Shown piece by piece: positions 1-38,000 of a stretch of DNA of 38,000 bases. The stretch spans positions 1-38,000 of the IMG/VR virus record IMGVR_UViG_3300045988_173701. One strand, given 5' to 3'. The DNA comes from a virus. The position numbers were made by a program, and so were the translations under genes. Numbering within the stretch: the stretch's first letter is position 1; each line of letters begins with the position of its first letter. The notes under the pieces were generated by a model, which was given only the letters and a program-made list of their open reading frames with translations, was not told the origin of the DNA and made no database searches.

Positions 1-23
1 TTTATACCATTGATTAAGTGAGA

Positions 24-37
24 GCATTCTATATCCC
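24..37 (-). repeat. Recombination site, core GCATTCTATATCCC (sfx-like); mirror of site S5
   Basis: Shared core GGGATATAGAATGC read on the minus strand. The 23-nt flank at 1-23 equals the flank at 1115-1137 in inverted orientation. Confidence 0.7.
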
Positions 38-578
38 AACCAATTAAAACTGAACAGATCGAAGAAGGCTGCACGCTTTACTACTATCCCGATAATACGG
101 TCGAGATCAGCGTTTACGACATGATCATGCGCAATGAAAATACATGGACACTGGGCACTCTCGATAAACCTCCACAACATAAAGCCTGTATGTCTCTCTG
201 TGCATCAGATGCAGACCATACAGGTGTTTTATGGGTTAACGATAGTGGTCAGGTAGTATGCAAGCACAACACTAGCGGCACATATCACTACAACGGCAAC
301 ATGCGTATTCCGCTTAGCTAGTTAATTGAGCTTCAAGCATAAAATAGATGCTTCGACTTCGGCGGTTATTTGAGCGCCACTTGTGTTTCTAACGTTAATT
401 TTTAATTGGCTATCAGCTAAACGGTATGAGCTGATAACGCATGCAGCATTTGCGCTTGCCACGCTTAAATACTGCAATGCGCATGCCGTATATCCTGGCG
501 GAATATCAAGATCAAAGGTAAATAAATTATTGCTTGTGCCATTCATCAAAACCGTTTGCTTTTCGGTCTGATAAAACT

Positions 579-592
579 GGGATATAGAATGC
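579..592 (+). repeat. Recombination site, core GGGATATAGAATGC; mirror of S4
   Basis: Exact core, sitting between cassette-bearing segments. Confidence 0.7.
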
Positions 593-839
593 TAAATTCG
601 CATATAAACAGCAGTTATTGTCCCTTCGACGGTGATTTGACCACTCATCAAATTAATTATTCGAGTGTATGTTAATCCAGAATTAGGACTGTGCATTGGA
701 GCACTGACACTAAAAGCAAGACTATCGGTAGACGTGCCGTCAAACATGCAAGATACGCAAGTATATCCTTCGATGTTTTCAAGAGTAACAAACACTTGTC
801 CATGTGATGCAATTGTTTCGTTTACGTTTACGATTTTAT

Positions 840-850
840 GGGATATAGAA
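840..850 (+). repeat. Degenerate recombination site GGGATATAGAAaac; mirror of S3
   Basis: 11 of 12 core positions match, and it lies exactly at a cassette boundary. Confidence 0.5.
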
Positions 851-1100
851 AACTAGATAAGCCCCAATCCATGAATGGATATTTTTTCGTTGTCAAAAGA
901 AGCATTAGCATTTGTTACATTTCTGATGCCTACATCGAACCCTGTGTTTGTAACGTTTCTTATTTCGACCTGAACGCGCGCATTAGTTACTTGTGCCCAA
1001 ACTCCCCAAAGATCTACAAATGGAACAGGCCACTCTCTGTTTGCTAGATTGTAAGCGCCATTTGCCTCGATAATTGTTTTATCGATAACGTATGTTTGAT

Positions 1101-1114
1101 GGGATATAGAATGC
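1101..1114 (+). repeat. Recombination site, core GGGATATAGAATGC with 23-nt extended flank (1115-1137); mirror of S2
   Basis: 1101-1137 is the perfect reverse complement of 1-37. Confidence 0.7.
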
Positions 1115-1383
1115 TCTCACTTAATCAATGGTATAAACCACAGTCAAATTAACCTTAATGGTCTGAGCTTGCGATGTAACAAGCTGCAAGTCGTTGTGTC
1201 CGTTATCGGTATTCCATAGAGCAGCAGCGTTTACGGAAGATACGGAACAGGCTGAAAGCGTAGGAATAAACGCAACAATAGAATCAGGATCAATGTCCTC
1301 AAAGCCACTAATACTAGTGACTGATTGCGATGCTGTGCTGGTTACATTAAAGCTGACGTTTCTCCTGGTGCGTACCTGAATAT

Positions 1384-1397
1384 GGGATATAGAATGC
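1384..1397 (+). repeat. Boundary recombination site next to the recombinase gene (core GGGATATAGAATGC)
   Basis: The terminal inverted identity ends after GGGATATAGAAT. The right flank GCCATCACTCAC is unique to the recombinase side. Confidence 0.7.
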
Positions 1398-1407
1398 CAT
1401 CACTCAC

Positions 1408-2337
1408 TCAATCACTCGTAATTGTCAGTGACGCTGTAAGTGATGCGTGAGTGATCTTTGGTGCGTGATCAAACAGGTAGTCTTGCCAGATGGATTGTGC
1501 GTGCTTGATTATCGATTTACGCGGTACGATATAGTGGTTGTAGGCGGTCATAATGTTGGAATGGCCAAGGAACATGGCAACCGTTTCTATCGCTATACCA
1601 GCTTCGACGGCGATCGTTGCCCATGAGTGTCTCATGTTGGTCATGGTAACAACGGGGAGTTTGTTCCGTTTGCAAAACGCCTTTATTCGACGCGAGATAT
1701 TTTGCGGGTTATCGGGGTTTAGATATCCCTTTGGTCTACCGATAGATACCCAGATAGCATGTAACCTGTCTTTCGCAAACTTTGGTAGGTAAAGCACGCG
1801 GTTTGATTTTCGCGTTTTGGTTGGCAATATCACGACTTCGCCGCGTACGTATTGACGGCTACGGCTTATAGATACTGCGCCATTTCGCCAGTTAATATCA
1901 TCCCAACGTATGCCGTAGCTCTCTCCTGGACGCAAAGCAAGAGTAGTGCTGACTATTACGGTCGGTTCGTCTTTATGTCCGAAAAAGCCACGAAGTCGCT
2001 TAGCGGTTTCATTTGCTGTTATGGTCTTGGGGCGGTAGATAGGTTTACTAGGTAACTCGATCCCTTGCGTTGGGTTCCAAATTCGCAGGCGATATTTTCT
2101 GATTGCCCAGTTAAACAATTGGCGCAGGCATTTAAACGCCTTTTCTGCTGCACCCGCTTTGGTAAAGCCGTCCACCCATGCCTGGATTGTTTCAGGTTCG
2201 ATTGCTTCTATTTCGCAATTCCCGAACGTAGGGAGTATGTACAAGTTAATCGATGATCTATAGCCGTCGACGGTGGAAGCGCGGCGGCGCTGTTTTTTTT
2301 CTTCGAGATAAGCGACTGATATTTCGTTGATGTTCAT
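1408..2337 (-). CDS. Small tyrosine site-specific recombinase, candidate shufflon invertase (Rci-like role)
   Basis: 309 aa. C-terminal catalytic region has MRHSWAT (HxxR) and LGHSNIMTAYNHYI (catalytic Tyr). It lies directly beside the multi-site cassette array. Confidence 0.8.
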   Translation of the reverse strand: MNINEISVAYLEEKKQRRRASTVDGYRSSINLYILPTFGNCEIEAIEPETIQAWVDGFTKAGAAEKAFKCLRQLFNWAIRKYRLRIWNPTQGIELPSKPIYRPKTITANETAKRLRGFFGHKDEPTVIVSTTLALRPGESYGIRWDDINWRNGAVSISRSRQYVRGEVVILPTKTRKSNRVLYLPKFAKDRLHAIWVSIGRPKGYLNPDNPQNISRRIKAFCKRNKLPVVTMTNMRHSWATIAVEAGIAIETVAMFLGHSNIMTAYNHYIVPRKSIIKHAQSIWQDYLFDHAPKITHASLTASLTITSD

Positions 2338-2405: not shown

Positions 2406-2427
2406 TTGCTTGAAAGGGGGTGATGCT

Positions 2428-2754
2428 ATGGCTGATTTTCCCATTACTACCTTAATTGGATGGTTTTTTGCTCCACTTTGTTCTGGGCTTGTTGGCTACA
2501 TGTTGGCGGTGCTTAATTCGATGCGAAAACGTAATGCTGTTCATGATGAAGCAATGGAGCAGGGTATGCGCGCACTTTTGCGACAGCAGTTAATCGATTA
2601 TCACGCAGAATATGTTGCTTCTGGCGGTCCTTGCCCTATTCGGATCAAAGAGCAAGCGACAAGTGTGTATAACGCCTATCACGCACTAGGTGGTAATGGA
2701 ACAGGTACGCAACTTTATCAAGAAATCCTAGAACAACATGTAAAGGAGGATTAA
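2428..2754 (+). CDS. Small membrane protein of the lysis cassette (holin-like?)
   Basis: ATG at 2428 with RBS AAAGGGGGTGAT. One hydrophobic helix followed by a hydrophilic tail. Immediately upstream of the holin and endolysin. Confidence 0.4.
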   Translation: MADFPITTLIGWFFAPLCSGLVGYMLAVLNSMRKRNAVHDEAMEQGMRALLRQQLIDYHAEYVASGGPCPIRIKEQATSVYNAYHALGGNGTGTQLYQEILEQHVKED

Positions 2755-3006
2755 ATGGAAGAAGATTATAAGCCGCCTAAATGGCTAATTCCTGACAAGG
2801 CATATGACGTATTGAAATGGGTCGGACTGATTGTATGTCCGGCTCTTTCTTTTTTCATGCTTTCGTTAGGACAGACGTGGGGTATTCCATATGCACCAGA
2901 GCTTGCAATGTCGATTAGTGCGGCTGGTACGGCAATTGGTGCTCTGATTGGTGTATCTGCTATTAAGGGAGGTGGAGCCGATGATCAAAACACTAAAACA
3001 GACTAA
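2755..3006 (+). CDS. Holin (two predicted transmembrane helices)
   Basis: 83 aa with two hydrophobic stretches. Overlaps the endolysin start. Confidence 0.5.
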   Translation: MEEDYKPPKWLIPDKAYDVLKWVGLIVCPALSFFMLSLGQTWGIPYAPELAMSISAAGTAIGALIGVSAIKGGGADDQNTKTD

Positions 3007-4138
3007 AGCGGTGACGAAGCTCGTTGCTGTTACCGCTGCTATCGGTATTGCCACGGCAGCTATGGCATACGCTCCAACTGATAGCATCGTTGGTCCCGAT
3101 GATGCGATGGCCTACACGCAATATGAGCAGATCATTAGCAATGGTCACGGGTCTATTAACCCGTCTTACTTAGTTATCCATGAGACCGCAGACCCAGGCG
3201 CTACGGCAGATAACCTTATGGCTTATTGGCGCAACAATCCTAATGCTTACGTTGTGCACTACACCATGGATCTCGATGGTGATACGGTCTATCATGCAAT
3301 GGCTGACAATCGCAAGGCTTGGCACGTAGGTAACGGCAACGCATATACCGTTGGCATTGAGCTTTGTCATGCGACCAACAAAGCAGATTTTAATGAGCAA
3401 TGGGACGAGGCTGTAAAGTGGGCAGGAGATTACCTCAACGCTAAGGGATGGGGTATTGACCGCTTGCTTTGTCACAATGACTGCCGACTAAAATGGGGCG
3501 GAACTGACCACACAGATCCACTCGGTTACTTTGAGAGCTATGGTAAATCTTGGAGCCAGTTTAAGGCTGCTGTACAGGCTTATATGCGTACAGGTGAGGT
3601 ATCTGGCAGTGCTGGTAGCACTGTAGGTGGTTCTACTTCTAGTGGATCATCTGCAGGTCATAGCGGTACTGGATTTGGCGGTACTTATACGGTAATGGCA
3701 TCTAGCCTCAATATCCGCACCGCACCTAGCACTTCTGCTGGTATTGTCGGTAGCTACTCTCGTGGTGGCAAGGTAGTTCTGGACGATTGGTATAAGATCG
3801 CTGACGGCTATGTTTGGGGCAAATACACTGCTTACAGTGGCAATGTGCGATATGTTGCCGTAGGTAAGCCGACTGGCGGATATGATCCTTCTGATTATCT
3901 GGTCAAGGGCGGTAATGCTACTAGCTCCACTAGCGGTGCAAAGTCTGGTGGCTGGTATACGGTAGATGTCAACACTGCGCTCAACGTGCGCACTGGCCCC
4001 AGTACCAACTACCGCATTACAGGGCAGTTGCACGACGGTTATAAGCTGTATGTGCAATCCGTATCTAACGGTTGGGCTAAGTATCAAGCTTACACTGGTG
4101 CTCGCTATGTAAGCGCACAGTATTTAGATGCGGCGTAA
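2981..4138 (+). CDS. Endolysin: N-acetylmuramoyl-L-alanine amidase (Amidase_2/PGRP-like) with two C-terminal SH3b-like repeats
   Basis: ATG at 2981 after GGAGGTGGAG. HETADPG and the H/C active-site pattern are present. A Gly/Ser linker is followed by two repeated YTV-NVRTxPSTxxxIxG modules. Confidence 0.8.
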   Translation: MIKTLKQTKAVTKLVAVTAAIGIATAAMAYAPTDSIVGPDDAMAYTQYEQIISNGHGSINPSYLVIHETADPGATADNLMAYWRNNPNAYVVHYTMDLDGDTVYHAMADNRKAWHVGNGNAYTVGIELCHATNKADFNEQWDEAVKWAGDYLNAKGWGIDRLLCHNDCRLKWGGTDHTDPLGYFESYGKSWSQFKAAVQAYMRTGEVSGSAGSTVGGSTSSGSSAGHSGTGFGGTYTVMASSLNIRTAPSTSAGIVGSYSRGGKVVLDDWYKIADGYVWGKYTAYSGNVRYVAVGKPTGGYDPSDYLVKGGNATSSTSGAKSGGWYTVDVNTALNVRTGPSTNYRITGQLHDGYKLYVQSVSNGWAKYQAYTGARYVSAQYLDAA

Positions 4139-4179
4139 AATAAAATCCATAGTTAATCAGATTCGTTTATTAACTTAAA

Positions 4180-4210
4180 GGGAGCCTAGTTTGGCTCCCT
4201 AGCTTTTTTG
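4180..4210 (+). terminator. Rho-independent terminator after the endolysin (GGGAGCC-loop-GGCTCCC then T6)
   Basis: 7-bp GC stem plus TAGCTTTTTTG. Confidence 0.6.
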
Positions 4211-4482
4211 TCTGGATGGTAATCTTGCGGATCTCTCGGTTTCCAACTCAAATCATCACGTAGAAATTGAATTTGTTTTATTAGGACATATACACCTAAT
4301 ATAAAAAACAAAGCAAAAACTACTATCCAAAGTAATTCATTTGATAAGATCGCAATTATTGTAGCTGTGAGTGAAAGTAAAAGCTCAGGGATCAGTAGTC
4401 CAATCGCTATTCTTCTATTGCGGATCTTTCTCTTTTGTATTTTTCTCATTGCTTTTAGCCTGTCTTCTGACCAATAGCCCAT
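4186..4482 (-). CDS. Small membrane protein
   Basis: 98 aa with two hydrophobic helices. Minus strand, between the lysis cassette and attP. Confidence 0.4.
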   Translation of the reverse strand: MGYWSEDRLKAMRKIQKRKIRNRRIAIGLLIPELLLSLTATIIAILSNELLWIVVFALFFILGVYVLIKQIQFLRDDLSWKPRDPQDYHPDKKAREPN

Positions 4483-4607
4483 TGTCTATCCTTTCGATCC
4501 TGTGACCATAGTGTCACGAATGGTCACAGTGAAATATCAATAGGTTTAAATCAAGTACAAACAAACGCTGGTATTTATATTCATTTATATATAATATACG
4601 TATGAAC

Positions 4608-4657
4608 GCCCCCTTCTAATCCAAAGGTCGTAGGTTCGAATCCTACTGGGCGCGCCA
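4608..4657 (+). other. Partial tRNA 3' end (T-arm GTAGG-TTCGAAT-CCTAC, acceptor 3' strand, encoded CCA); candidate attP core
   Basis: Canonical T-stem/loop and acceptor 3' strand, but no matching 5' acceptor strand upstream. Lies between the lysis module and the integrase. Confidence 0.65.
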
Positions 4658-4667
4658 GCTTTTTCTA

Positions 4668-4703
4668 CTCTCACCTTGTATTTCAAAGGTGAGAGTTTTT
4701 TAT
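4668..4703 (+). terminator. Rho-independent terminator (TCTCACCTT-loop-AAGGTGAGA then T6)
   Basis: 9-bp stem plus TTTTTTATTT. Confidence 0.6.
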
Positions 4704-4705
4704 TT

Positions 4706-5863
4706 CTAGCTACTCGTGACATTTTCGGTCTCATCTCGGTCACAATAAAACGCCTTATCAAGTATAGCCTTGAAATGCTTGACCTTTGGTTTTGTGTAAT
4801 AGGCATAGGTTGTAGATATATTTGAGTGTCCCAATAGCTTTGCAGCAGTTTCAATAGGAACTCCCAAATCTTCAAGCATGGTGCTATAGCTCGCTCTTAG
4901 GTTCTTCCATGGTATATATACGAATGGATGGTTGGTAAACCATCGTTTGTAGGCAGTTGCCGCCCTGTCGGGGTTTATTGGAGCGCCAAAGCCATCATCA
5001 AGCATCCAAATATCGTTTTCTCTTTCAGCTTCATCTAGGATGCTTTTAAGGCGTTTAGCGTAAGGATCTACCAAAACTGCGATTCGTTTGCTTTCGGGTG
5101 TTTTAGTATCGGGTGATTCTGCGCATTCGTCCGATATCACTAATTCTTTATTTATATATTGCACGGTTCTTCTGATCTTTAACGTTGCATATCCTTCAAA
5201 GAATTCGATATCTTCTCTTTTTAATCCAAATGCTTCTTCTCTTCTAAGACCACCAAACGCTGAAACAATAAAACCAGCGAGCCAATATTCATCTGTCATT
5301 TCTTCTAATAATTCATCTAATGTTTCCTTGTCGTATATTTCGCTATTCATGCGCCGTGAGGTGTTTTTGTTTGGCAGTTTATAACGGCGTGCCATCACAT
5401 TGCGATGTATGTATTCGCCATCTTCTGCGTAGTTAAACATCGCTCTCATCGTTTTTAATAAGCTTTTAGCGGATCCATAGGTAAGTTCTTCAAGATAGCT
5501 TTTAACCTCGGCTACTTGGATATTTTCCATTTCTTTTTTGCCGAATTGGGGACTGATGTGGCATCTATATACGCTTTCATAGCCTCTTACGGTTGCAGGT
5601 GCCTGATTCTTTTTTATATAGGGGTAGTAATAGCGGATCCAAAACTGATCAACGCTTATATTTCGTTTAATTTGATCTGACGGAGCGTTCAGAATCCTTA
5701 ATTCTGCAAGCCTTAGTTCAGCATCTTTTTTTGTGCCATGTATGGTTTCAGATGCTTGACGGCGCTTGCCCGTAATTGGATCGTCGGAGAGGGGATACCT
5801 AATGCGGTATACACCGTTTTTTGTTTTAGATATGGTTCCCCATGTTCGAGTTCTTTTAGCCAT
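4706..5863 (-). CDS. int: Phage integrase (tyrosine recombinase)
   Basis: 385 aa. C-terminal LLGHSNISTTYAYY motif. Adjacent to the tRNA-derived att core. Confidence 0.9.
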   Translation of the reverse strand: MAKRTRTWGTISKTKNGVYRIRYPLSDDPITGKRRQASETIHGTKKDAELRLAELRILNAPSDQIKRNISVDQFWIRYYYPYIKKNQAPATVRGYESVYRCHISPQFGKKEMENIQVAEVKSYLEELTYGSAKSLLKTMRAMFNYAEDGEYIHRNVMARRYKLPNKNTSRRMNSEIYDKETLDELLEEMTDEYWLAGFIVSAFGGLRREEAFGLKREDIEFFEGYATLKIRRTVQYINKELVISDECAESPDTKTPESKRIAVLVDPYAKRLKSILDEAERENDIWMLDDGFGAPINPDRAATAYKRWFTNHPFVYIPWKNLRASYSTMLEDLGVPIETAAKLLGHSNISTTYAYYTKPKVKHFKAILDKAFYCDRDETENVTSS

Positions 5864-5910: not shown

Positions 5911-5952
5911 CTCGCTTCTCGGTCGCCAAACTTCGAGCGAGGTTCTTTTTTA
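5911..5952 (+). repeat. 42-bp direct repeat, copy 1 (hairpin plus T-run; overlaps the Abi_2 stop codon)
   Basis: CTCGCTTCTCGGTCGCCAAACTTCGAGCGAGGTTCTTTTTTA, identical to 7211-7252. Confidence 0.9.
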
Positions 5953-7074
5953 ATTGCTTATATTCGTTTTTCTTCCTCTACTATCAACTGCGGTTATACT
6001 AGTGTGCTTTATACCCAGTTTCTTAATTAGGTAATTTCTTAATCTGCCATTATGCACGACTCGATGTACTTTTATTCCTAGTACCGATTCTTGCAATAGC
6101 AAATCACTCCAATTAGGAGGTATATTTGCAATATTTAAAATGTCTGAAAATTCGCTTAATAGGTTAGTTGCGTCTCGCAACAACAGCGCACCATAAGACA
6201 AGCTGGTATCTTCCGCAAAAAGCCTATTGGTATTCAGTAGCTTCAGTAAGACGAGGATGATATAAAAAGGATTTCCGTTATCTCCTTCAGCTCCATGTAT
6301 TCTTTTTGGACGAGAAACGAGCTTTTTTCCGCAAATTTGCCCAAAGTGCGCACATGTATTTCTAATACCAGAAATAGATCTTGCCCAGCTTGTAAGTTCT
6401 TCTTGGGTAACTCCAAATGATTCAGCTACACCGTTTCTGACAGATTTGCTTCTTGTGTTGCTGTATAACATCGAAAGCGTTCCAAAAGACATAAGCTCTA
6501 CGGCTAACCAGGTCGGAGCGTCTCCGTATTTTTCGTAAGCTTCAATAACGTTAATGTTTCTATTTTTTATTTGGCGCTTGAATTCTCTTTGATAAGTTTG
6601 CAGGAAATTTTTGAAAAAGTCCTTTTTCTTAAAGTTTTTAGGATCTCTATGGGCGAAAGCTCCTCGTTGCATTGACAGGCGATATGAGTATTGGGCGCGG
6701 AACTGCAATTCGAATAATCCGATATATTCCATAAACAAGGCTTGCAGTTTGCGATCAAATAGGATAATTCGATGCAATGTTTTCATGGATGCACCTGACA
6801 TCATCTTTCCGTTTTCGTCTGAGAAAAGCCGAAAGTATCCACTTGCATGTTGATAGCTTATTCTGTTTAGTATGTATTCTGCCTGATCAGTAGATCCATC
6901 TATAAATCCTCTTTTTACTGCATGCTCTCTCAATTCGCTTAATTTGAGAGGTGAAGGTGGATCTGATAGGGGAGTGAATTCTGTCGTAAAATGAACGACC
7001 GAAGGATTTACGCCAACGTTTCCGCGACTACCTTCGGTTCTGTCAGCGCTAATTGTATCACAGTCGTTATACAT
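5950..7074 (-). CDS. Abortive-infection protein, Abi_2 (AbiD/AbiF-like) family
   Basis: 374 aa. ISYQHASGYFRLF and LFDRKLQALFMEYIGLFELQFRAQYSY match my memory of the Abi_2 YYRL/FDRKLR pattern. Confidence 0.65.
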   Translation of the reverse strand: MYNDCDTISADRTEGSRGNVGVNPSVVHFTTEFTPLSDPPSPLKLSELREHAVKRGFIDGSTDQAEYILNRISYQHASGYFRLFSDENGKMMSGASMKTLHRIILFDRKLQALFMEYIGLFELQFRAQYSYRLSMQRGAFAHRDPKNFKKKDFFKNFLQTYQREFKRQIKNRNINVIEAYEKYGDAPTWLAVELMSFGTLSMLYSNTRSKSVRNGVAESFGVTQEELTSWARSISGIRNTCAHFGQICGKKLVSRPKRIHGAEGDNGNPFYIILVLLKLLNTNRLFAEDTSLSYGALLLRDATNLLSEFSDILNIANIPPNWSDLLLQESVLGIKVHRVVHNGRLRNYLIKKLGIKHTSITAVDSRGRKTNISN

Positions 7075-7210: not shown

Positions 7211-7252
7211 CTCGCTTCTCGGTCGCCAAACTTCGAGCGAGGTTCTTTTTTA
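7211..7252 (+). repeat. 42-bp direct repeat, copy 2 (overlaps the GHKL gene stop codon)
   Basis: Identical to 5911-5952. Confidence 0.9.
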
Positions 7253-8545
7253 TTGACCAATATTAAAATGTCTTTTTAGTGCTTCATTAATCATCATTTC
7301 ATTTATCGGCGATACGTTTGTTATTGAAAAATAGGTCATGTATTTTACGAAACCGACTTCCTCTATCATTTTCCCTAACAGTTCGTCTGCATAAGAAGAA
7401 GTAACTATACTTGTGCTGTCGAAGTCGATTAGAATCTTTTTACCGCTCTGTTCGAATGCGTTTCTTATTACATTTCTTAGCCTGTTGGCAGCATATCTCG
7501 TTCCTGTCCCCTGAGATTCCTTTGCTATTTCGAACACAAGCGTATTTTCATTTAGTTCGTGGTCCTCTTCCCATAAGTCAGTTGGAATATATCCAAATAA
7601 AGCGTTTTCTACATTTATTTCTTTATCGACGGTGATTCTAAAATCAATAGTTGTTCCTCCGCTGATAGATGTTGCGATCTTTGAAATGACGGGTTCTGAA
7701 GATTCATTATCTTTAATATGGTCGAAAGTAACCCTTGTTTTGCCTGTAGAGATTTCCAATAATCCACAATTGTCTTTAATTAGCTGAGATAACATCCAAA
7801 GACCTCTGCCTGCTCCATTCCCAGAGGTAATATTTCTGGAAATTGCAAGTTGGATAGCTTCATCTTCATTTGCTGGAGAATATTTAGATCCTTCAAATGA
7901 TTTTAGGATTCCTTGGCCATTATCGTGAATAGTAAAAGCAACTGTTCTATTGTCTTGGTGGTATTGAGCCATTACGTATCCTACTGCATTTTCTACAGGC
8001 TCATTTGATGGTAGGGAATGGTTGATGACGTTATCCATTACTTCATTTAAGCAAAGCTCAATGCTAGGTAAAACACCTTTTACCAGCTTTGCATGCGTTC
8101 TTAAAGAATGAACTATTCCGCTTACAATTTTATCAATATCTTTCGAGGTGAATTTCCATACCCTGTCTAGGAATTCGCTTCTATAGATGTCTTCATTTCG
8201 GTATTCCTTTGGAGATATAAATGATGTATGTCCTAAATATGATCCTGCGAGATTCTGTGTCTTTAGAAAGACGCATCCTTTTTCTTTTGTGTAATAATCT
8301 AAGAGTGCGGAAACTGGTACACACATACTTGGATATGCTGAATCTGATTTTCCAATATTGCGAATCTTGAATATTTTTATACCGAGTTTAAGATTAGATT
8401 CTACGACTCTGGAAACGTGGTTAACCGATCCACGTTTTGCTATGTTGAGAGATATTATTTTATATCGGCTTGATTTGTCGTTTTCCGTCATAGTGTTCTT
8501 TTCTCTTGACTTGAAATAAAATCCTGTTATTATTCGTTGTGTCAC
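7250..8545 (-). CDS. GHKL-family ATPase (HATPase_c-like) with a possible STAS-like C-terminal region
   Basis: 431 aa. N-box LNEVMDNVINHS, G1 box HDNGQGI, G2 box SGNGAGRGLWM. Alternative start at Met-18 (8494). Confidence 0.6.
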   Translation of the reverse strand: MTQRIITGFYFKSREKNTMTENDKSSRYKIISLNIAKRGSVNHVSRVVESNLKLGIKIFKIRNIGKSDSAYPSMCVPVSALLDYYTKEKGCVFLKTQNLAGSYLGHTSFISPKEYRNEDIYRSEFLDRVWKFTSKDIDKIVSGIVHSLRTHAKLVKGVLPSIELCLNEVMDNVINHSLPSNEPVENAVGYVMAQYHQDNRTVAFTIHDNGQGILKSFEGSKYSPANEDEAIQLAISRNITSGNGAGRGLWMLSQLIKDNCGLLEISTGKTRVTFDHIKDNESSEPVISKIATSISGGTTIDFRITVDKEINVENALFGYIPTDLWEEDHELNENTLVFEIAKESQGTGTRYAANRLRNVIRNAFEQSGKKILIDFDSTSIVTSSYADELLGKMIEEVGFVKYMTYFSITNVSPINEMMINEALKRHFNIGQ

Positions 8546-11673: not shown

Positions 11674-12017
11674 CGAGGGTTTTAGTAGGTAGGGCGTGGC
11701 ATGGAGATAGCGGATATTCCGCGATAAACCCCGATTAAACTTTTTTGCTTTTTTAGTCCCTTTTGGAGCAGTGACCAAAATCCAACTCCATGTCACATCC
11801 TGCCTACTAAGGGCAGGGCCTTACTGGATGGGTAGCGAGTGGTTTTTGTTTTCGCCTTTCGTTTCCAGCTCGCTACCTGTTCGGTTAAGGCTGAATACCT
11901 ACATATAAGCGCAAGCTGGACTTGATGGAATAGCGGCTCTGCATGGAATGGCTTGCGCTTGTATCTGGGTATTCCAGAAGCAGTTTGAAAAGCGAATACG
12001 TAGATAGGTGGTATGAA

Positions 12018-12905: not shown

Positions 12906-13226
12906 ATGTCTATATGTCCATCGTGCGGCGGGTATTTGCCGCGAAACAGTGAAAGGTCAATTTGTCGCGAGTGCCACCTGAAGCGCGAGATTGAGTCGTT
13001 GCGTTGGGAAGTGGGAGAGCTTTATCGAATTCTTCCGATGCATATTCGTGCGAAATTGCGCAGCCAAGAGCAGGTTTATGTTCGTCAGGCCAATGTTAGC
13101 GTTTCTGGAAGATCCACCTCAAAAAGATTAAAGCGCTTATACCTTGAGCGTGATGCCCTTAAAAAGCAGGTTAGATCGTATCGTAAAGCTGCGATCGAGT
13201 GCGGTGTGCTTCGGAGTGGTAAGTAA
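12906..13226 (+). CDS. Zinc-finger protein (CxxC ... CxxC) in the integrase-2 cassette
   Basis: CPSCGG ... CRECH. Stop overlaps the integrase start (TAATG). Confidence 0.45.
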   Translation: MSICPSCGGYLPRNSERSICRECHLKREIESLRWEVGELYRILPMHIRAKLRSQEQVYVRQANVSVSGRSTSKRLKRLYLERDALKKQVRSYRKAAIECGVLRSGK

Positions 13227-14404
13227 TGGCATCGTCTCGTTTTAACTCAAATACGGGCATGATCGAGGTACGTGCTTATGCTGGCAAGGATCCGATTACG
13301 GGTAAGGTGCGGAATTTATTTCGCTCGCTTCCTGGAGACTCGGAGCCTGAAGCGGTAATAGGTGTTTGTGCAGAGTTACAAGAACAAGCAGATGCACTAA
13401 AGGGTCGATCTATTCCTTTTACTGTTAAGAGCGCAATTGAGTACTACTTTGATTGCATAGCGTCAGACCATTCAGCTACCACTATGGATGCGTATAGGTC
13501 AAATGCGCGTTGCTATGTGTATCCCTTTATTGGTGATAGGAGATTAGACGATCTTCAACCCTTTGAAATTACAAGGCTTTATCAGAGGCTCATTGATAAG
13601 GGCGGCAAGGATGAAAACCCTGTATCAAATTCTACGGTTGCCAAGTTGCATGCTTGGTTAAAACCCGCTTTTGATTATTTGGTTGGTTTAGGTATTGCAG
13701 GTTCTAATCCGTTTTCTTATGTAAAACGACCACGCGAAAACCAGGAAGAAGCGTTTGCGTTAAGCGAGATCGATCTAGCGGTTTTAATGGATTATCTCTA
13801 CGAAGCATCGAATCTTGATTCTGATGAATTCGACATGCTAAACGTTGCTTTGTTGTTGTGTTTGAATACAGGCATTAGACGTGGTGAGCTTGCAGGTTTT
13901 AGGGTGGGCGATTACAAGTCGCGCACTTCATCTATTTCGGTTAAGTCGAACTTGGTGCAAACCACAAAAGGATTAGTGCGCAAAGTTCCCAAGTCTAAGC
14001 ACTCAAGGCGCAATATATCGCTTCCTATTGATGTCTGTAATGTTCTTGATGGATATCTTTTCTGGCAGCGCGAAATGCTCGATGTTCACGGAATTCGCCA
14101 ACGTAGCGATACTCCTCTTTTTTGCGACAAGGAAGGCGCACCTATTCATCCTCGTATGTTTGCAAAGCATTTGCGCTACCTGGTAGGCAAATTAAAGCTG
14201 GATAGATCAATCCACTTGCATACCTTGCGTCACACCCATGCTACAGCGCTTTTAGATTTAGGTGTGAATATAAAAACTATTTCGGAGCGTTTGGGCCATT
14301 CAGATGTCGGGGTTACCTTGCGAATTTATTCCCATGTGTTGCCAGGTCGCGATGAGCAGGCAGCTAATACGTTTTCCAAAGCGGTGATGCGCCGTGACGT
14401 ATAA
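13226..14404 (+). CDS. Second phage-type integrase (tyrosine recombinase)
   Basis: 392 aa. C-terminal HTLRHTHATALLDLG ... RLGHSDVGVTLRIYSH. Confidence 0.85.
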   Translation: MASSRFNSNTGMIEVRAYAGKDPITGKVRNLFRSLPGDSEPEAVIGVCAELQEQADALKGRSIPFTVKSAIEYYFDCIASDHSATTMDAYRSNARCYVYPFIGDRRLDDLQPFEITRLYQRLIDKGGKDENPVSNSTVAKLHAWLKPAFDYLVGLGIAGSNPFSYVKRPRENQEEAFALSEIDLAVLMDYLYEASNLDSDEFDMLNVALLLCLNTGIRRGELAGFRVGDYKSRTSSISVKSNLVQTTKGLVRKVPKSKHSRRNISLPIDVCNVLDGYLFWQREMLDVHGIRQRSDTPLFCDKEGAPIHPRMFAKHLRYLVGKLKLDRSIHLHTLRHTHATALLDLGVNIKTISERLGHSDVGVTLRIYSHVLPGRDEQAANTFSKAVMRRDV

Positions 14405-15373: not shown

Positions 15374-16049
15374 TGCTTTGCCTGAATCGGAAAAGCAAAA
15401 AATACGTGAAAACGATGCGATAAATCGAGCTAAAAGAGAGCGTGCAGCGATGCAAAATATTCGCGAAAAAACGATTAAAAATCGCATCAAATATAGCGGT
15501 ATTCCTGAAGAATATAAGTCCGCAAAACTTGAGTATTGCGCATTGTCTATCCAGCAATATTTCGCAGCACTTGAAGTAGATGTGCGCGAGGATTTGGTGT
15601 TGCGCGGCGATGCTGGTACAGGCAAGACTTACGCAGCGTGTGCGGTAGGTATGGAATACATTAAAGGTCATACCGTGCGCTTTGTTACCATGCCTTATTT
15701 TTTGCGTGCAGTGAATGGTACTTGGATAAGCCGTGCCGAAACACCTCAGGAAGCGTTCGACCGCTATGCTGGCGCTGATTTGCTTATCTTGGATGACCTA
15801 GGTAAAGAGGTACCAAAAGAAACCTCGATTGCCTATATTTGGGAGCTTATTGACGTACGTAAGTCAAACGGTAGACCAACCATCATTACCACAAATTACG
15901 ATAGCGATAAGCTATACGATAGGCTTTCACAGGGCGGAAACAACAATGATGTGGTAGCGATTATCGACCGTATTGCACAATCTAATGTTGTTGTTATTGG
16001 TGGCCCGTCGCGGCGCGAGGTTTGCACCACGGTAGGAGGTGCAGCTTAG
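15339..16049 (+). CDS. DnaC/IstB-like AAA+ helicase loader
   Basis: Walker A GDAGTGKTY, Walker B LLILDDLG. Confidence 0.75.
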   Translation: MIDQRELLADFNALPESEKQKIRENDAINRAKRERAAMQNIREKTIKNRIKYSGIPEEYKSAKLEYCALSIQQYFAALEVDVREDLVLRGDAGTGKTYAACAVGMEYIKGHTVRFVTMPYFLRAVNGTWISRAETPQEAFDRYAGADLLILDDLGKEVPKETSIAYIWELIDVRKSNGRPTIITTNYDSDKLYDRLSQGGNNNDVVAIIDRIAQSNVVVIGGPSRREVCTTVGGAA

Positions 16050-18532: not shown

Positions 18533-19616
18533 ATGCTGTTTCATATAAATTCTGAAGATCTCGGTCATATTCTATCTAGCGTGGCACCTATAGCTGATAT
18601 GGGTGCAACGGTTGAGCAGATGTGTGTTTATATCGAAGCGCTCGATAGCGGATGCGTTCGTTTTAGTGCAACTGATATGAACAATAGCGTTAGGCACACT
18701 AAATCCGCTTTGATAACGGAGGTTGGTACCTGTTTGGTTTCTGCTCGAAAGTTGCAAGCGTTGGTTAAGACACTCCCATCGCAAGAGGTAGAAATTAAAA
18801 CGGATGGTCAAGAAGTAAAGATATCTTGCGGCAAGATTAAAGCTAATATTCCATCCCTCGATCCCTCTTTGTTCGATCCTTTGGTTTTTGTTGATACTTC
18901 TTGCGGTATTGAGATGCCTTTTGATGAATTTTCGGACATTGTTAAGTCTTGTGTGAAAAACGTTGCAACAAAAGACGATAGGCCAGCTATTACCTGTGTA
19001 CATATTCATGCAGTAGACAATAGGCTTATTTTTACCGCAACCGATTCGTTTAAGGTGTATGAGGGTTTCGCTAATTGCGCAAAACCCGTCGAATTCGACG
19101 CGTTAGTACCTGCAGTATTTCTATCCAAAGTTGCAGCGCTTAAAGCTGGCAAGACTATCAAATTTGCGATCGATCATAACCAAATCGCTTTTAGTGATGG
19201 TGAAATTGAGATCGGATCGTCTCTTAATATGGGTAAATAGCCAAATCTTAAGGTAGCGCTTAGCTATAACGCATATCTCAATGTTGTTGTTAGTACTGCA
19301 GCTTTAAGGCGAGCAGTTGAGCGTGCAAATTCCGTTAGGTCTCATACGGTACGACTTGAAGCGCAGCAAGGCGTATTAAAAATAACTGGTATTTCCAAGG
19401 ACGATGGAACAACGTATGAAGAAATAGAATGCGAATGCTCGAATCCCGAATACCAGAAAGCCTACTTGAATAGTTCTTATTTGCAGCAATACATAGGTTC
19501 TCTTCTGTTTAATAAGGTCACTCTTTCGTTCTGTGGCGAAAATCGACCTTTAGGTATCAGTAGCGACTATTCCAACGGGATTGTTATGCCAGTTCGTGCG
19601 CCTGAGGGGTGGTAGA
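18533..19616 (+). CDS. DnaN-like beta sliding clamp, interrupted by one in-frame TAG at 19238-19240
   Basis: The same frame stays open on both sides of a single amber codon. The C-terminus ...GIVMPVRAPEGW looks like DnaN. 361 codons in total. Confidence 0.5.
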
Positions 19617-35825: not shown

Positions 35826-36065
35826 ATGCCTATTACTGAAGGTTATTCACTATGCGAATGTGCAGGATGCGGAAAGTGTCAGTATTTAAAACCGACTGAT
35901 GATGAATATTCGAACTATGTAAACCGTGAGCGTATTACTGCAAACGGAAACTCGAGTAAAACTACTTTCTGCAAGGACTGTAACAACAAATATCAATCTT
36001 TTGTTAATCAACAAGATATCGATTTTCAGAACTTCTTAACTGGACTTAAAACTAAGGAGAAATAA
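35826..36065 (+). CDS. Small zinc-ribbon protein
   Basis: CECAGCGKC ... CKDCNNKY. Confidence 0.4.
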   Translation: MPITEGYSLCECAGCGKCQYLKPTDDEYSNYVNRERITANGNSSKTTFCKDCNNKYQSFVNQQDIDFQNFLTGLKTKEK

Positions 36066-36880
36066 TGGGAAACAGTGGAGCTTTTGAGCTTGTTACAGGA
36101 CATGGCGCTGAGCCTCATGTTGATGCCGACGATCATGCTTTGCTTTATGCGTCCTTTATAGGTTCAGGTGTATATCGTTTAACCGGGGTCAAGACAGCAG
36201 AAATCGAAGTTACCTCAGAAAATGAGGTAACTATAAGTCCTGGTATGTTTCTTATTCACGGTCGATTTGCACGTGTTAAAGATCCTATTTCGTTATCAAT
36301 TGAGACTGGCTCACAAGGACAAAACAGAAACGATCTTGTAGTTTGTGAATATTCTTATTCTGGAAATGAAACCGAAATCGACGATATGGAACTGGTAGTA
36401 GTTACGGGAACTCCTGCTAATCCTGGATCAGAAACAGATCCGTCAATTGAGGACGATTTAACCTTGTTCGATATTGAGTACGGCGGAAGTATTACCGATG
36501 AAACAATCATTCAAGTTCCACTTTGGAGGGTGCCAAAAGAAGGATTAACGACACAAGATCCAGTTGCATTATTTAAGGATTATGTTGATGCAACTACCGC
36601 CAGGGATTCTATATCCCATATTCAGGTACGCACCAGGAGAAACGTCAGCTTTAATGTAACCAGCACAGCATCGCAATCAGTCACTAGTATTAGTGGCTTT
36701 GAGGACATTGATCCTGATTCTATTGTTGCGTTTATTCCTACGCTTTCAGCCTGTTCCGTATCTTCCGTAAACGCTGCTGCTCTATGGAATACCGATAACG
36801 GACACAACGACTTGCAGCTTGTTACATCGCAAGCTCAGACCATTAAGGTTAATTTGACTGTGGTTTATACCATTGATTAA
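36065..36880 (+). CDS. Receptor-binding protein: 180-aa constant N-terminus (36065-36605) fused to variable cassette A (36606-36880)
   Basis: The ORF reads through site S1 (encoding DSISH) into segment 1. Its stop TAA lies in the extended flank of site S2. Start is coupled to the upstream stop (TAATG). Confidence 0.7.
   Translation: MGNSGAFELVTGHGAEPHVDADDHALLYASFIGSGVYRLTGVKTAEIEVTSENEVTISPGMFLIHGRFARVKDPISLSIETGSQGQNRNDLVVCEYSYSGNETEIDDMELVVVTGTPANPGSETDPSIEDDLTLFDIEYGGSITDETIIQVPLWRVPKEGLTTQDPVALFKDYVDATTARDSISHIQVRTRRNVSFNVTSTASQSVTSISGFEDIDPDSIVAFIPTLSACSVSSVNAAALWNTDNGHNDLQLVTSQAQTIKVNLTVVYTID
36606..36617 (-). repeat. Recombination site S1 (ATTCTATATCCC on the + strand) at the constant/variable junction
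   Basis: The terminal inverted identity starts here. The core is translated as S-I-S. Confidence 0.75.
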
Positions 36881-36886
36881 GTGAGA

Positions 36887-36900
36887 GCATTCTATATCCC
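36887..36900 (-). repeat. Recombination site S2 (GCATTCTATATCCC) with 23-nt extended flank at 36864-36886
   Basis: 36864-36900 is the reverse complement of 37964-38000. Confidence 0.75.
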
Positions 36901-37148
36901 ATCAAACATACGTTATCGATAAAACAATTATCGAGGCAAATGGCGCTTACAATCTAGCAAACAGAGAGTGGCCTGTTCCATTTGTAGATCTTTGGGGAGT
37001 TTGGGCACAAGTAACTAATGCGCGCGTTCAGGTCGAAATAAGAAACGTTACAAACACAGGGTTCGATGTAGGCATCAGAAATGTAACAAATGCTAATGCT
37101 TCTTTTGACAACGAAAAAATATCCATTCATGGATTGGGGCTTATCTAG
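36888..37148 (+). other. Silent cassette B (86 codons, no start codon) read in the site frame: HSISHQTYVIDKTIIEANGAYNLANREWPVPFVDLWGVWAQVTNARVQVEIRNVTNTGFDVGIRNVTNANASFDNEKISIHGLGLI
   Basis: Translated by hand from S2. Open until TAG at 37146-37148, immediately before S3. Not in the ORF track because it has no ATG, GTG or TTG start. Confidence 0.65.
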
Positions 37149-37409
37149 TTTTCTATATCCCATAAAATCGTAAACGTAAACGAAACAATTGCATCACATG
37201 GACAAGTGTTTGTTACTCTTGAAAACATCGAAGGATATACTTGCGTATCTTGCATGTTTGACGGCACGTCTACCGATAGTCTTGCTTTTAGTGTCAGTGC
37301 TCCAATGCACAGTCCTAATTCTGGATTAACATACACTCGAATAATTAATTTGATGAGTGGTCAAATCACCGTCGAAGGGACAATAACTGCTGTTTATATG
37401 CGAATTTAG
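37149..37409 (+). other. Silent cassette C, read through S3 as FSISHKIVNVNETIASHGQVF... and ending ...ITAVYMRI (covers ORF 37206-37409)
   Basis: Same relative frame to the site as cassettes A and B. Stop TAG at 37407-37409 lies in the S4 flank. Confidence 0.65.
37151..37161 (-). repeat. Recombination site S3 (degenerate: TTCTATATCCC preceded by TT rather than GCA)
   Basis: Core match at a cassette boundary. Confidence 0.5.
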
Positions 37410-37422
37410 CATTCTATATCCC
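37409..37422 (-). repeat. Recombination site S4 (GCATTCTATATCCC)
   Basis: Exact core. Confidence 0.75.
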
Positions 37423-37679
37423 AGTTTTATCAGACCGAAAAGCAAACGGTTTTGATGAATGGCACAAGCAATAATTTATTTACCTTTGATCTTGATATTC
37501 CGCCAGGATATACGGCATGCGCATTGCAGTATTTAAGCGTGGCAAGCGCAAATGCTGCATGCGTTATCAGCTCATACCGTTTAGCTGATAGCCAATTAAA
37601 AATTAACGTTAGAAACACAAGTGGCGCTCAAATAACCGCCGAAGTCGAAGCATCTATTTTATGCTTGAAGCTCAATTAA
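37410..37679 (+). other. Silent cassette D: HSISQFYQTEKQTVLMNGTSNNLF ... LCLKLN (covers ORF 37452-37679)
   Basis: In frame with the site. Lies tail-to-tail with cassette E with no site between them. Confidence 0.65.
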
Positions 37680-37976
37680 CTAGCTAAGCGGAATACGCAT
37701 GTTGCCGTTGTAGTGATATGTGCCGCTAGTGTTGTGCTTGCATACTACCTGACCACTATCGTTAACCCATAAAACACCTGTATGGTCTGCATCTGATGCA
37801 CAGAGAGACATACAGGCTTTATGTTGTGGAGGTTTATCGAGAGTGCCCAGTGTCCATGTATTTTCATTGCGCATGATCATGTCGTAAACGCTGATCTCGA
37901 CCGTATTATCGGGATAGTAGTAAAGCGTGCAGCCTTCTTCGATCTGTTCAGTTTTAATTGGTTGGGATATAGAATG
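37680..37976 (-). other. Silent cassette E on the minus strand, read from S5 as HSISQPIKTEQIEEGCTLYYYPDNTVEISVYDMIMRNENTW ... RIPLS (covers ORF 37680-37880)
   Basis: Translated by hand from the mirror copy (25-321). Same site frame. Confidence 0.65.
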
Positions 37977-37977
37977 C
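37964..37977 (+). repeat. Recombination site S5 (GGGATATAGAATGC), the only site in opposite orientation to S1-S4; extended flank runs to the window end
   Basis: Exact core, followed by TCTCACTTAATCAATGGTATAAA, which is the inverse of the S2 flank. Confidence 0.75.
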
Positions 37978-38000
37978 TCTCACTTAATCAATGGTATAAA

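What the first reader, a model, noticed from the sequence alone, without database searches (positions are those of the whole stretch)
1..1395. Window begins and ends with the same 1.4-kb cassette set in opposite orientation; both identity boundaries sit inside recombination sites
Positions 1-1395 are the reverse complement of 36606-38000, since every mirrored ORF translates identically. Identity stops at GGGATATAGAAT|GCCATCAC at 1395/1396 on the recombinase side. On the constant-region side it stops at CCGCCAGGG|ATTCTATATCCC at 36605/36606. This is the footprint expected from site-specific inversion with crossover next to the conserved arm, not from ordinary duplication. The left copy places cassette E (25-321, + strand) where the right copy places A. 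So the sequence shows two shufflon states of one locus. This is either population heterogeneity folded into one contig of a circular genome, or a genuine mirror duplication of the cassette set between the receptor-binding gene and the recombinase. The repeat reaches both window edges, so its true extent is unknown. The 23-nt outermost flank resembles, but does not equal, the recombinase-side flank GCCATCACTCACTCAAT, so more segments may lie outside the window.
Basis: seen in the sequence. Interest (0 to 1): 0.85.

Follow-up and report, generated by a model that had tools for sequence, protein, structure and literature searches.

The report
Phage tail-fibre shufflon, assembled twice
The mirrored 1.4-kb ends of this 38-kb phage contig are most likely one invertible set of receptor-binding-protein cassettes (a Rin-type shufflon, already known from gut Actinobacteria phages) that the assembler entered from both sides because at least two orientations are represented, so the terminal inverted repeat is an assembly product and the biology is a new member of a known system.

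Summary
Observation confirmed. Bases 1-1395 are the exact reverse complement of 36606-38000, and identity stops at the edge of a 13-bp repeat, ATTCTATATCCCA. The window is the whole 38,000-bp JGI contig, so nothing lies outside it.

The repeat is a tyrosine-recombinase shufflon acting on a siphophage receptor-binding protein. It has:
- a 180-aa constant part (36065-36604);
- five alternative 86-98-aa C-terminal cassettes (A, B, C, and the back-to-back pair D/E), each in frame through the site;
- an armless tyrosine recombinase (1408-2337, minus strand).

This matches the Rin shufflon of Bifidobacterium and Eggerthella prophages. The recombinase is 36% identical to the one in the same position in Bifidobacterium phage PMBT6. 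The site matches the published rix site at 8 of 11 bases. The host of a related prophage is an Eggerthellaceae bacterium.

No single isomer with one cassette set can contain all six junctions in the contig. At least two isomers were merged. The outermost 25 nt are the 3' end of cassette A, so the path loops back into itself. Every relative whose contig spans the locus carries one cassette set, in varied permutations.

Verdict: a new member of a known kind, and the inverted terminal repeat is an assembly chimera. No reads were available, so heterogeneity within the sample is inferred.

The parts
1..1395 (.). Left terminal copy of the shufflon path, read from the recombinase side. Order: 3' end of A, site, E forward, then D, C, B and A reversed, each followed by a site.
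   Evidence: Exact reverse complement of 36606-38000; sites and cassettes mapped.
36606..38000 (.). Right terminal copy of the same path, read from the fibre side. Order: site, A, site, B, site, C, site, D forward, E reversed, site, 3' end of A reversed.
36065..36604 (+). Constant N-terminal part (Rc, 180 aa) of the receptor-binding / tail-fibre protein. As assembled, the full ORF 36065-36880 is Rc plus cassette A (271 aa).
   Evidence: ORF. It follows the tape measure protein (30715-32991), a 293-aa ORF (32982-33863, no family match), a minor tail protein (33867-35816) and a 79-aa gene. Homologues keep this 180-aa part at up to 99% identity and carry more than 15 unrelated C-termini.
36606..36618 (+). 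Crossover site inside the fibre gene (ATTCTATATCCCA, encoding S-I-S-H). Sites in the same orientation lie at 36889-36901, 37150-37162 (TTTCTATATCCCA) and 37411-37423. The oppositely oriented site is at 37963-37975.
   Evidence: The const-side site contains the inverted pentamers GGGAT / ATCCC around TCTAT (read from the sequence).
1383..1395 (-). Recombinase-proximal crossover site, 12 nt from the recombinase stop codon. Mirror images of the other sites lie at 1100-1112, 839-851 and 578-590 (minus strand) and 26-38 (plus strand).
36605..36880 (+). Cassette A (91 aa plus stop). Mirror copy at 1121-1396 (minus strand).
   Evidence: In frame with Rc. 81-92% identical C-termini are found on fibres with a different constant part (P0038-P0042).
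36888..37148 (+). Cassette B (86 aa plus stop). Mirror copy at 853-1113 (minus strand).
   Evidence: Open and in the Rc frame through the site. Sub-threshold H-type lectin match, E 3.7e-4. 99% identical copies in L023, L029 and L031.
37149..37409 (+). Cassette C (86 aa plus stop). Mirror copy at 592-852 (minus strand).
   Evidence: About 30% identical to expressed C-termini P0012, P0027 and P0033.
37410..37679 (+). Cassette D (89 aa plus stop). It is one half of the double-ended segment D/E. Mirror copy at 322-591 (minus strand).
   Evidence: Found expressed as Rc+D in P0003 and P0014, 90-91% identical.
25..321 (+). Cassette E (98 aa plus stop), convergent with D with no site between them. Mirror copy at 37680-37976 (minus strand).
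   Evidence: Found expressed as Rc+E-like in P0008 and P0026 and fused to the constant part in L015-L017. Its 66-aa ORF is present on 13 contigs in both orientations.
1..25 (+). 3' end of cassette A repeated at the contig tip (mirror 37976-38000). This is the point where the assembly path loops back into A.
   Evidence: Bases 1-38 are the exact inverted repeat of 1100-1137. The same junction (A 3' end, site, E) is preceded by the rest of cassette A in relatives L022 and L028.
1408..2337 (-). Shufflon recombinase: a 309-aa tyrosine recombinase with no N-terminal arm-binding domain.
   Evidence: Pfam Phage_int_SAM_3 plus Phage_integrase. R136, K174, R236, H259 and Y269 are invariant in the alignment, and it lacks the roughly 60 N-terminal residues of the phage integrase. 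36% identical to the recombinase in the same position in Bifidobacterium phage PMBT6.
4483..5863 (-). attP region (about 4483-4705) and the phage integrase (4706-5863). This shows that the contig is the excised, circular form.
   Evidence: Homology to prophage L004 runs over window 2414-4700 and stops 6 nt before the integrase stop codon. In L004 bacterial genes follow at that point.

Best explanation
The window is a complete 38-kb contig of a temperate siphophage of a gut Eggerthellaceae bacterium, assembled in its excised circular form and broken at a Rin-type shufflon.

The real genome (about 36.6 kb) carries one set of four invertible segments: A, B, C and the double-ended D/E. The set lies between the constant 5' part of the receptor-binding-protein gene and an armless tyrosine recombinase gene.

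The recombinase pairs two oppositely oriented copies of the 13-bp core ATTCTATATCCCA and inverts everything between them. The core lies inside the reading frame (S-I-S-H/Q). Each inversion that involves the site in the gene therefore fuses the 180-aa constant part to a different 86-98-aa C-terminal domain. That gives five possible proteins and 48 possible DNA isomers. The C-terminal domains are presumably the receptor-binding heads, so switching would change host or receptor specificity.

The assembled DNA held at least two isomers. The start of cassette A is therefore linked both to the fibre gene and to the recombinase side. The assembler walked into the same cassette chain from both ends of the unique sequence and stopped when the path re-entered cassette A. 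That produced a perfect 1395-bp terminal inverted repeat that is probably not present in any molecule.

Shown here: the anatomy, the in-frame fusions, the incompatibility of the junctions with one isomer, the homology of the recombinase and sites to Rin-type loci, and permuted single sets in relatives.

Inferred: catalysis by this recombinase, strand exchange inside the core, the receptor-binding role of the cassettes, and heterogeneity within the sample rather than a mixture of fixed lineages.
For: - Exact 1395-nt inverted repeat ending at the site cores.
- Ten site copies, all inside the repeat, against 0.6 expected by chance.
- All five cassettes are open and in frame with the constant part through the site.
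- The recombinase is a tyrosine recombinase with catalytic residues conserved and no arm-binding domain.
- The window is the whole contig.
- Of 48 reachable isomers, none contains all six observed junctions, while 10 pairs do.
- The contig tips equal the 3' end of A.
- A second assembly of the same phage (100% identical, ENA scaffold_627) ends at both ends in the first 55 nt of site plus cassette A. Two further assemblies of the same phage stop exactly at the recombinase-side site and at the const/core boundary.
- The contig crosses attP.
- Relatives that span the locus in one contig always carry a single cassette set. They show A, B, D and E at 79-100% nucleotide identity in different orders and orientations. 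Cassettes always point away from the fibre gene on its side of D/E and towards it on the recombinase side. None has a long internal inverted duplication.
- D-like, E-like, C-like and A cassettes are found expressed as C-termini elsewhere.
- Rin-type identity: 36% identity to the recombinases of Bifidobacterium phage PMBT6 and Siphoviridae ctl617 in the same gene order, each locus with repeated TTCCGTAACCC sites. The published rix site is TTCCCTAACCC and the published architecture is Rc 168 aa plus Rv 95-100 aa (PMC6109161). A Rin shufflon has been reported in Eggerthella lenta prophages (PMC8778435).
- The host of related prophage L004 is Eggerthellaceae / Cryptobacterium sp. CAG:338.
Against: - No reads, coverage or assembly graph were available, so the coexistence of isomers in one sample is deduced from contig junctions only.
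- The assembler is unknown. The 38-nt exact overlap at the contig tips does not match the k-mer sizes I know of for common assemblers.
- Collapsed true duplicates would give the same assembly graph at the two A-start junctions.
- The original Rin protein of Bb423phi1 was not available for direct comparison.
- The receptor-binding role of the cassettes rests on gene position, one sub-threshold H-type lectin match and weak fold matches to a low-confidence model (pLDDT 62.6).
Confidence: 0.87

Rival explanations
1. Genuine mirror duplication. The phage genome physically carries two inverted copies of the cassette set between the fibre gene and the recombinase.
For: Two identical inverted copies would collapse in an assembly graph and give the same const|A and rec|A links. 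Without reads this cannot be formally excluded.
Against: - The contig tips re-enter cassette A, so a literal reading would need a third and fourth copy of A.
- All relatives that span the locus have one set and no long internal inverted repeats.
- The two copies show zero divergence over 1395 nt.
- The A-end|E junction exists as an ordinary single-set arrangement in L022 and L028.
Confidence: 0.04
2. Fixed isomers in co-occurring lineages. The isomers arose by past inversions but are now frozen in separate sub-populations, with no ongoing switching.
For: Contig data only show that two or more isomers contributed, not when they arose. Relatives are found in different fixed-looking arrangements.
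Against: - The recombinase is intact with conserved catalytic residues.
- Four assemblies of the same phage (99.98-100% identical) all break at the shufflon.
- Read-level switching was shown for the homologous Rin system in Bifidobacterium lysogens and induced virions (PMC6109161).
Confidence: 0.07
3. Physical linear genome with terminal inverted repeats, as in protein-primed or telomere phages.
For: The contig is linear and has a perfect inverted terminal repeat.
Against: - None of the ORFs I scanned matched a protein-primed polymerase, terminal protein or protelomerase, though I did not scan every ORF.
- The phage has a large terminase, a portal, an integrase and an attP crossing.
- Related elements are ordinary integrated prophages in which the fibre gene and the recombinase are neighbours.
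- The 'termini' lie inside a coding cassette.
Confidence: 0.01
4. Pure technical chimera with no biological heterogeneity, for example inverted chimeric molecules from amplification or an assembler mis-join at short repeats.
For: Amplification can create inverted chimeras, and assemblers can mis-handle short inverted repeats.
Against: - The breakpoints fall exactly at the 13-bp recombination cores.
- They recur in other assemblies of the same phage.
- The A-end|E junction is a natural arrangement in relatives.
- The 13-16-nt exact repeats are, as far as I know, shorter than the k-mers assemblers normally use.
Confidence: 0.01

Closest known systems
Rin shufflon of Bifidobacterium breve/longum prophages (Bb423phi1, Bl157phi1, Bl30698phi1; Mavrich et al. 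2018, PMC6109161) and of Eggerthella lenta clade-1 prophages (PMC8778435)
   Same: - A constant N-terminal RBP part (168 aa there, 180 aa here) is fused through a short asymmetric site to one of several 86-100-aa C-terminal cassettes.
- An armless tyrosine recombinase flanks the array, between the tail and lysis genes.
- A second site sits directly after the expressed gene.
- Cassettes are 16-29% identical to each other (6-30% there).
- The host is a gut actinobacterium.
- The site is similar (TTCTATATCCC against TTCCCTAACCC, 8 of 11).
- The recombinase is homologous to those of Bifidobacterium phage loci with rix-like sites (36% identity).
   Different: - Different site sequence and a low-GC (42%) phage of an uncultured Eggerthellaceae / Cryptobacterium-like host.
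- One segment (D/E) is double-ended, like the R64 A/A' segments.
- Inversion was not shown at read level here.
- The original Rin sequence was not compared directly.
R64 / IncI1 plasmid shufflon (Rci recombinase, sfx sites, PilV adhesin)
   Same: - Multiple-inversion system driven by a tyrosine recombinase.
- Asymmetric sites lie inside the coding sequence.
- Double-ended segments carry two convergent C-terminal cassettes.
- Only inverted sites appear to recombine. For R64 this is from my own knowledge of the literature.
   Different: - The target is a phage receptor-binding protein, not a conjugative pilus adhesin.
- The site sequence is unrelated.
- The recombinase gives only generic Xer/integrase family matches.
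- The system sits on a phage, not a plasmid.
Gin (Mu), Cin (P1), Pin (e14) and the Min multiple-inversion system of p15B
   Same: Phage tail-fibre C-termini are switched by site-specific inversion. Min has several crossover sites and many isomers.
   Different: Those systems use serine invertases (with an enhancer and Fis, from my own knowledge). Here the enzyme is a tyrosine recombinase.

Membership tests
Rin-type phage RBP shufflon | A constant N-terminal RBP coding part followed by several promoterless C-terminal cassettes, each fusable in frame at a crossover site. | tested here: met
   cassettes A-E (86-98 aa) all read in the frame of the 180-aa constant part through ATTCTATATCCCA.
Rin-type phage RBP shufflon | [quoted passage not shown] | tested here: met
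   a 309-aa protein with SAM-like core-binding and catalytic domains. It lacks the roughly 60 N-terminal residues of the 385-aa integrase at 4706-5863. It is only 28% identical to that integrase.
Rin-type phage RBP shufflon | A short asymmetric repeat (rix, TTCCCTAACCC) upstream of each cassette and rare elsewhere. | tested here: met
   TTCTATATCCC lies at every cassette start and only there (10 matches, 0.6 expected). It shares 8 of 11 bases with rix, so it is a variant sequence, not the same site.
Rin-type phage RBP shufflon | Recombinase homologous to Rin. | tested here: inconclusive
   35-36% identity over 86-88% of its length to the recombinases of Bifidobacterium phage PMBT6 and Siphoviridae ctl617. 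Both sit in the same gene order next to repeated TTCCGTAACCC sites. The Bb423phi1 Rin sequence itself was not available to compare.
Rin-type phage RBP shufflon | Inversion variants observed, with breakpoints in the sites. | tested here: met
   The evidence is indirect, from contigs only. The contig's six junctions need at least two isomers. A second assembly shows const|A and rec|A. Relatives carry the same cassettes in other permutations. No read-level test was possible.
R64-type shufflon (Rci / sfx / PilV) | The target gene is the pilV adhesin of a type IV conjugative pilus. | tested here: not met
   The target follows the tape measure and minor tail genes of a phage. No PilV domain was found.
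R64-type shufflon (Rci / sfx / PilV) | An Rci-type recombinase and sfx sites. | tested here: inconclusive
   Only generic Xer/integrase matches far below the cut-offs. The site sequence is unrelated to sfx as I recall it. No direct alignment to Rci was made.
Gin/Cin/Pin/Min invertase systems | A serine recombinase (resolvase/invertase family). | tested here: not met
   Phage_integrase (tyrosine) domains. No resolvase domain was found.
Phages with physical terminal inverted repeats | Protein-primed replication or a protelomerase, with termini outside genes. | tested here: not met
   large terminase, portal, a DnaC-like loader and a sliding-clamp-like protein, with no such enzymes among the ORFs scanned. 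The repeat ends inside coding cassettes. Relatives are integrated prophages.

The most novel reading that the evidence does not exclude
The 1.4-kb inverted repeat is physically real. The phage would then carry two mirrored cassette sets, or package a molecule with cassette-bearing inverted ends. It could then express or store twice as many receptor-binding variants, or use the shufflon sites in genome end formation.
Probability: 0.03. Interest if true: 0.6.

Novelty: new member of a known kind. Interest (0 to 1): 0.3.

Why it matters
Biologically, this extends the Rin-type shufflon to a widespread lineage of prophages of uncultured gut Eggerthellaceae. The 79-aa tail gene next to the fibre gene is indexed in 163 blocks of the sequence collection. 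A large pool of C-terminal cassettes is shared among these phages, even across different constant parts. This fits rapid retargeting of receptors by gut phages, but it does not change how such systems are understood.

Practically, it is a clear example of a perfect inverted terminal repeat that arises from an invertible segment. To my knowledge, completeness tools such as CheckV accept inverted terminal repeats as a sign of a complete genome. If so, they would over-size this genome by about 1.4 kb, duplicate five cassettes and hide the polymorphism.

Tried and rejected
- An exact 52-mer from the recombinase side was not found in IMG/VR.
- Megablast of both contig ends against INPHARED phages found nothing. 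Only a protein-level search found relatives.
- The exact Rc+A protein was not in the gene-position index, so I fetched the fibre end of the sister assembly through neighbouring genes.
- The scan of GTDB genomes with the constant part found no relative. I obtained the host from the names of bacterial genes flanking prophage L004 instead.
- The one metagenome scan, with the const|site junction, returned a single relative with other cassettes and did not return the source contig. It therefore gave no alternative fusions of this same strain.
- A profile search of the fibre family against PDB sequences gave no hit.
- The AlphaFold model of Rc+A was of low confidence (pLDDT 62.6). Its Foldseek matches (H-type lectins, pyocin and phage fibres, E 0.0075 or weaker) are only a hint.
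- No tRNA lies at attP.
- I considered a serine-invertase (Gin/Min) system and rejected it on the Pfam result.
- I considered real terminal repeats and rejected them on gene content and the prophage relatives.
- I could not identify the assembler from the 38-nt overlap at the tips.

Full report
**1. Observation**

Window 1-1395 is the exact reverse complement of 36606-38000, and the first mismatch is at 1396. The 11-mer TTCTATATCCC occurs ten times in the window, five per copy and nowhere else. Shuffles give 0.6 expected matches, and none of 100 shuffles reached ten. The fibre protein and the recombinase are each recorded on a single JGI contig of length 38000. The window is therefore the entire contig. 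The repeat is a terminal inverted repeat, and there is no sequence beyond the edges.

**2. Anatomy**

The right-hand copy reads as follows.
- Constant part of the fibre gene (36065-36604, 180 aa).
- Site, then cassette A (to 36880).
- Site, then cassette B (to 37148).
- Site, then cassette C (to 37409).
- Site, then cassette D (to 37679).
- Cassette E on the opposite strand (37680-37976), convergent with D.
- A site in the opposite orientation (37963-37975).
- 25 nt to the end of the contig.

All five cassettes are open. Each is in the frame of the constant part when joined at the site, which encodes (D/H/F)-S-I-S-(H/Q). The possible proteins are 266-278 aa long. The cassettes are 16-29% identical to each other.

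On the other side of the unique sequence, 12 nt from the last site, lies the stop codon of a 309-aa tyrosine recombinase (1408-2337, minus strand). It has Pfam Phage_int_SAM_3 and Phage_integrase domains. R136, K174, R236, H259 and Y269 are invariant in an alignment with relatives. It lacks the roughly 60 N-terminal residues of the phage's 385-aa integrase.

The fibre gene follows the tape measure protein, a 293-aa ORF with no family match, a 649-aa minor tail protein and a 79-aa protein. Holin and endolysin genes follow the recombinase.

The site in the fibre gene contains the inverted pentamers GGGAT and ATCCC around TCTAT. In the other sites only the cassette-side 13 bp are conserved, so the sites are asymmetric.

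**3. What the contig ends mean**

The outermost 25 nt are identical to the 3' end of cassette A. Positions 1-38 are an exact inverted repeat of 1100-1137. In relatives L022 and L028 the same 60-nt junction (2 mismatches) is preceded by the rest of cassette A. The contig therefore contains six junctions:
- const|A-start
- A-end|B-start
- B-end|C-start
- C-end|D-start
- E-start|A-end
- A-start|rec

I modelled inversion between oppositely oriented sites. Forty-eight isomers are reachable. None contains all six junctions, and ten pairs of isomers do, for example const-A-B-C-[D E']-rec together with const-B-C-[D E']-A'-rec. At least two isomers were therefore merged. The junction A-end|E-start also requires recombination at an internal site, not only a flip of the whole block.

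**4. Other assemblies of the same phage**

- ENA scaffold_627 (35,373 bp) is 100% identical over the 17.8 kb I fetched, apart from one short stretch that did not align. It ends at both ends in the same 55 nt, which are the site plus the first 42 nt of cassette A. It therefore also holds const|A and rec|A. I cannot tell whether it was built from the same reads as the JGI contig.
- A Logan contig from run SRR31145755 (100% identical) stops at ...TATCCCAT of the recombinase-side site. That is the last base shared by cassettes A, B and C.
- An ENA contig (ERZ501828, 99.98% identical) stops exactly at the const/core boundary.

None of these four assemblies of this phage spans the shufflon.

**5. 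The genome is circular here and carries one cassette set**

Related elements are integrated prophages. In them the order is fibre gene, cassettes, recombinase, holin, lysin, a 98-aa gene, then bacterial genes (L004, L005). Homology between the window and L004 runs over 2414-4700 and stops 6 nt before the stop codon of the integrase at 4706-5863. The window therefore runs across attP and represents the excised form. In that form the fibre gene and the recombinase are neighbours across the contig ends.

Every relative that spans the locus in one contig has a single cassette set of about 1.1-1.9 kb and no internal inverted repeat longer than 29 nt (L003, L015-L018, L022-L031). These loci carry cassettes A, B, D and E at 79-100% nucleotide identity in many orders and orientations. 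Cassettes on the fibre side of D/E always point away from the fibre gene, and those on the recombinase side always point towards it. The inversion model predicts exactly this.

Full-length fibres with D-like (90-91%), E-like (75-79%) and C-like (about 30%) C-termini exist. Cassette A (81-92%) also occurs on fibres whose constant part is only 49-53% identical. The family shows more than 15 unrelated C-termini on a nearly invariant constant part.

**6. Comparison with known systems**

The architecture is that of the Rin shufflon described in Bifidobacterium prophages (PMC6109161). That system has a 168-aa constant Rc part and 95-100-aa Rv cassettes. It has an armless tyrosine invertase and an 11-bp site, TTCCCTAACCC, before each cassette and directly after the expressed gene. 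Read-level inversion was shown there. A Rin shufflon has also been reported in Eggerthella lenta prophages, some of whose cassettes have H-type lectin domains (PMC8778435).

- The window's recombinase is 35-36% identical to the 'integrase' in the same position in Bifidobacterium phage PMBT6 and in Siphoviridae ctl617. Both loci carry repeated TTCCGTAACCC sites.
- The window's site shares 8 of 11 bases with rix.
- The bacterial genes flanking related prophage L004 are named Eggerthellaceae bacterium and Cryptobacterium sp. CAG:338, in Coriobacteriia.
- Cassette B gives a sub-threshold H-type lectin match, E 3.7e-4.
- A low-confidence model of Rc+A (pLDDT 62.6) finds H-type lectins and pyocin or phage fibres as weak best matches.
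- It is not a serine-invertase system of the Gin/Cin/Min type. It is not the PilV/Rci plasmid shufflon either, although it works like one.

**7. Verdict**

Two statements are wrong. E is not placed 'where A is', because E is never joined to the constant part in this contig. No further segments lie outside the window, because the tips are cassette A again.

The terminal inverted repeat is best explained as an assembly chimera of at least two shufflon isomers (confidence about 0.87). The rivals are weak:
- A genuine mirror duplication (about 0.04) would need extra copies of A and has no precedent among relatives.
- Fixed isomers in co-occurring lineages (about 0.07) is a variant of the same biology.
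- Physical terminal repeats or a purely technical chimera are each about 0.01.

The system is a new member of the known Rin-type shufflons, so interest is modest. Its main value is as a documented case in which an invertible segment produces a false inverted terminal repeat, and as evidence that this shufflon family and its cassette pool are widespread in gut Eggerthellaceae phages.

Reads or long reads across the locus would settle the remaining uncertainty.

Noticed in passing
window 13226-14404 (+): A third tyrosine recombinase (392 aa, Phage_integrase plus SAM-like domain) sits in the early/replication region. It is additional to the shufflon recombinase and the attP-proximal integrase. 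Its role is unknown.
   Followed up: no
window 5950-7074 (-) and 7250-8545 (-): Between the integrase and the repressor lie an Abi_2 abortive-infection-like gene and a 431-aa protein with histidine-kinase-like ATPase and STAS-like DUF4325 domains. They look like prophage-carried defence or accessory genes. Relative L003 has a shorter Abi_2 gene in the same place.
   Followed up: no
window 16039-18531 (+) and 18533-19240 (+): An 830-aa protein whose C-terminal part is an N6/N4 DNA methylase. It is followed by a 235-aa protein matching the first two domains of the DNA polymerase III beta sliding clamp.
   Followed up: no
window 1396-1420 and 1113-1137 (also L003, L015, L018 recombinase-side flanks): The flank next to the recombinase gene (GCCATCACTCACTCAATCACTCG) and the 3' end of cassette A (GCTCTCACTTAATCAATGG) share a TCACT-rich pattern beyond the 13-bp core. 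Similar TCACT repeats lie next to the recombinase in relatives. This could be a second binding arm or an accessory site, or a relic of past hybrid sites.
   Followed up: partly
P0038-P0042 versus window 36605-36880: Cassette A (81-92% aa identity) is attached to constant parts that are only 49-53% identical to this phage's. Cassettes are therefore exchanged between phages with different fibre shafts.
   Followed up: partly
L001 407-464 versus window 11874-11921: The otherwise 100% identical ENA assembly differs from the window by one short stretch that does not align, near window 11.9 kb. I did not examine it.
   Followed up: no
L003 12641-13729: In relative L003 no gene was called where the recombinase should be, although the DNA aligns to the window's recombinase at 81%. 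The gene may be disrupted there, or the gene call was simply missed.
   Followed up: no
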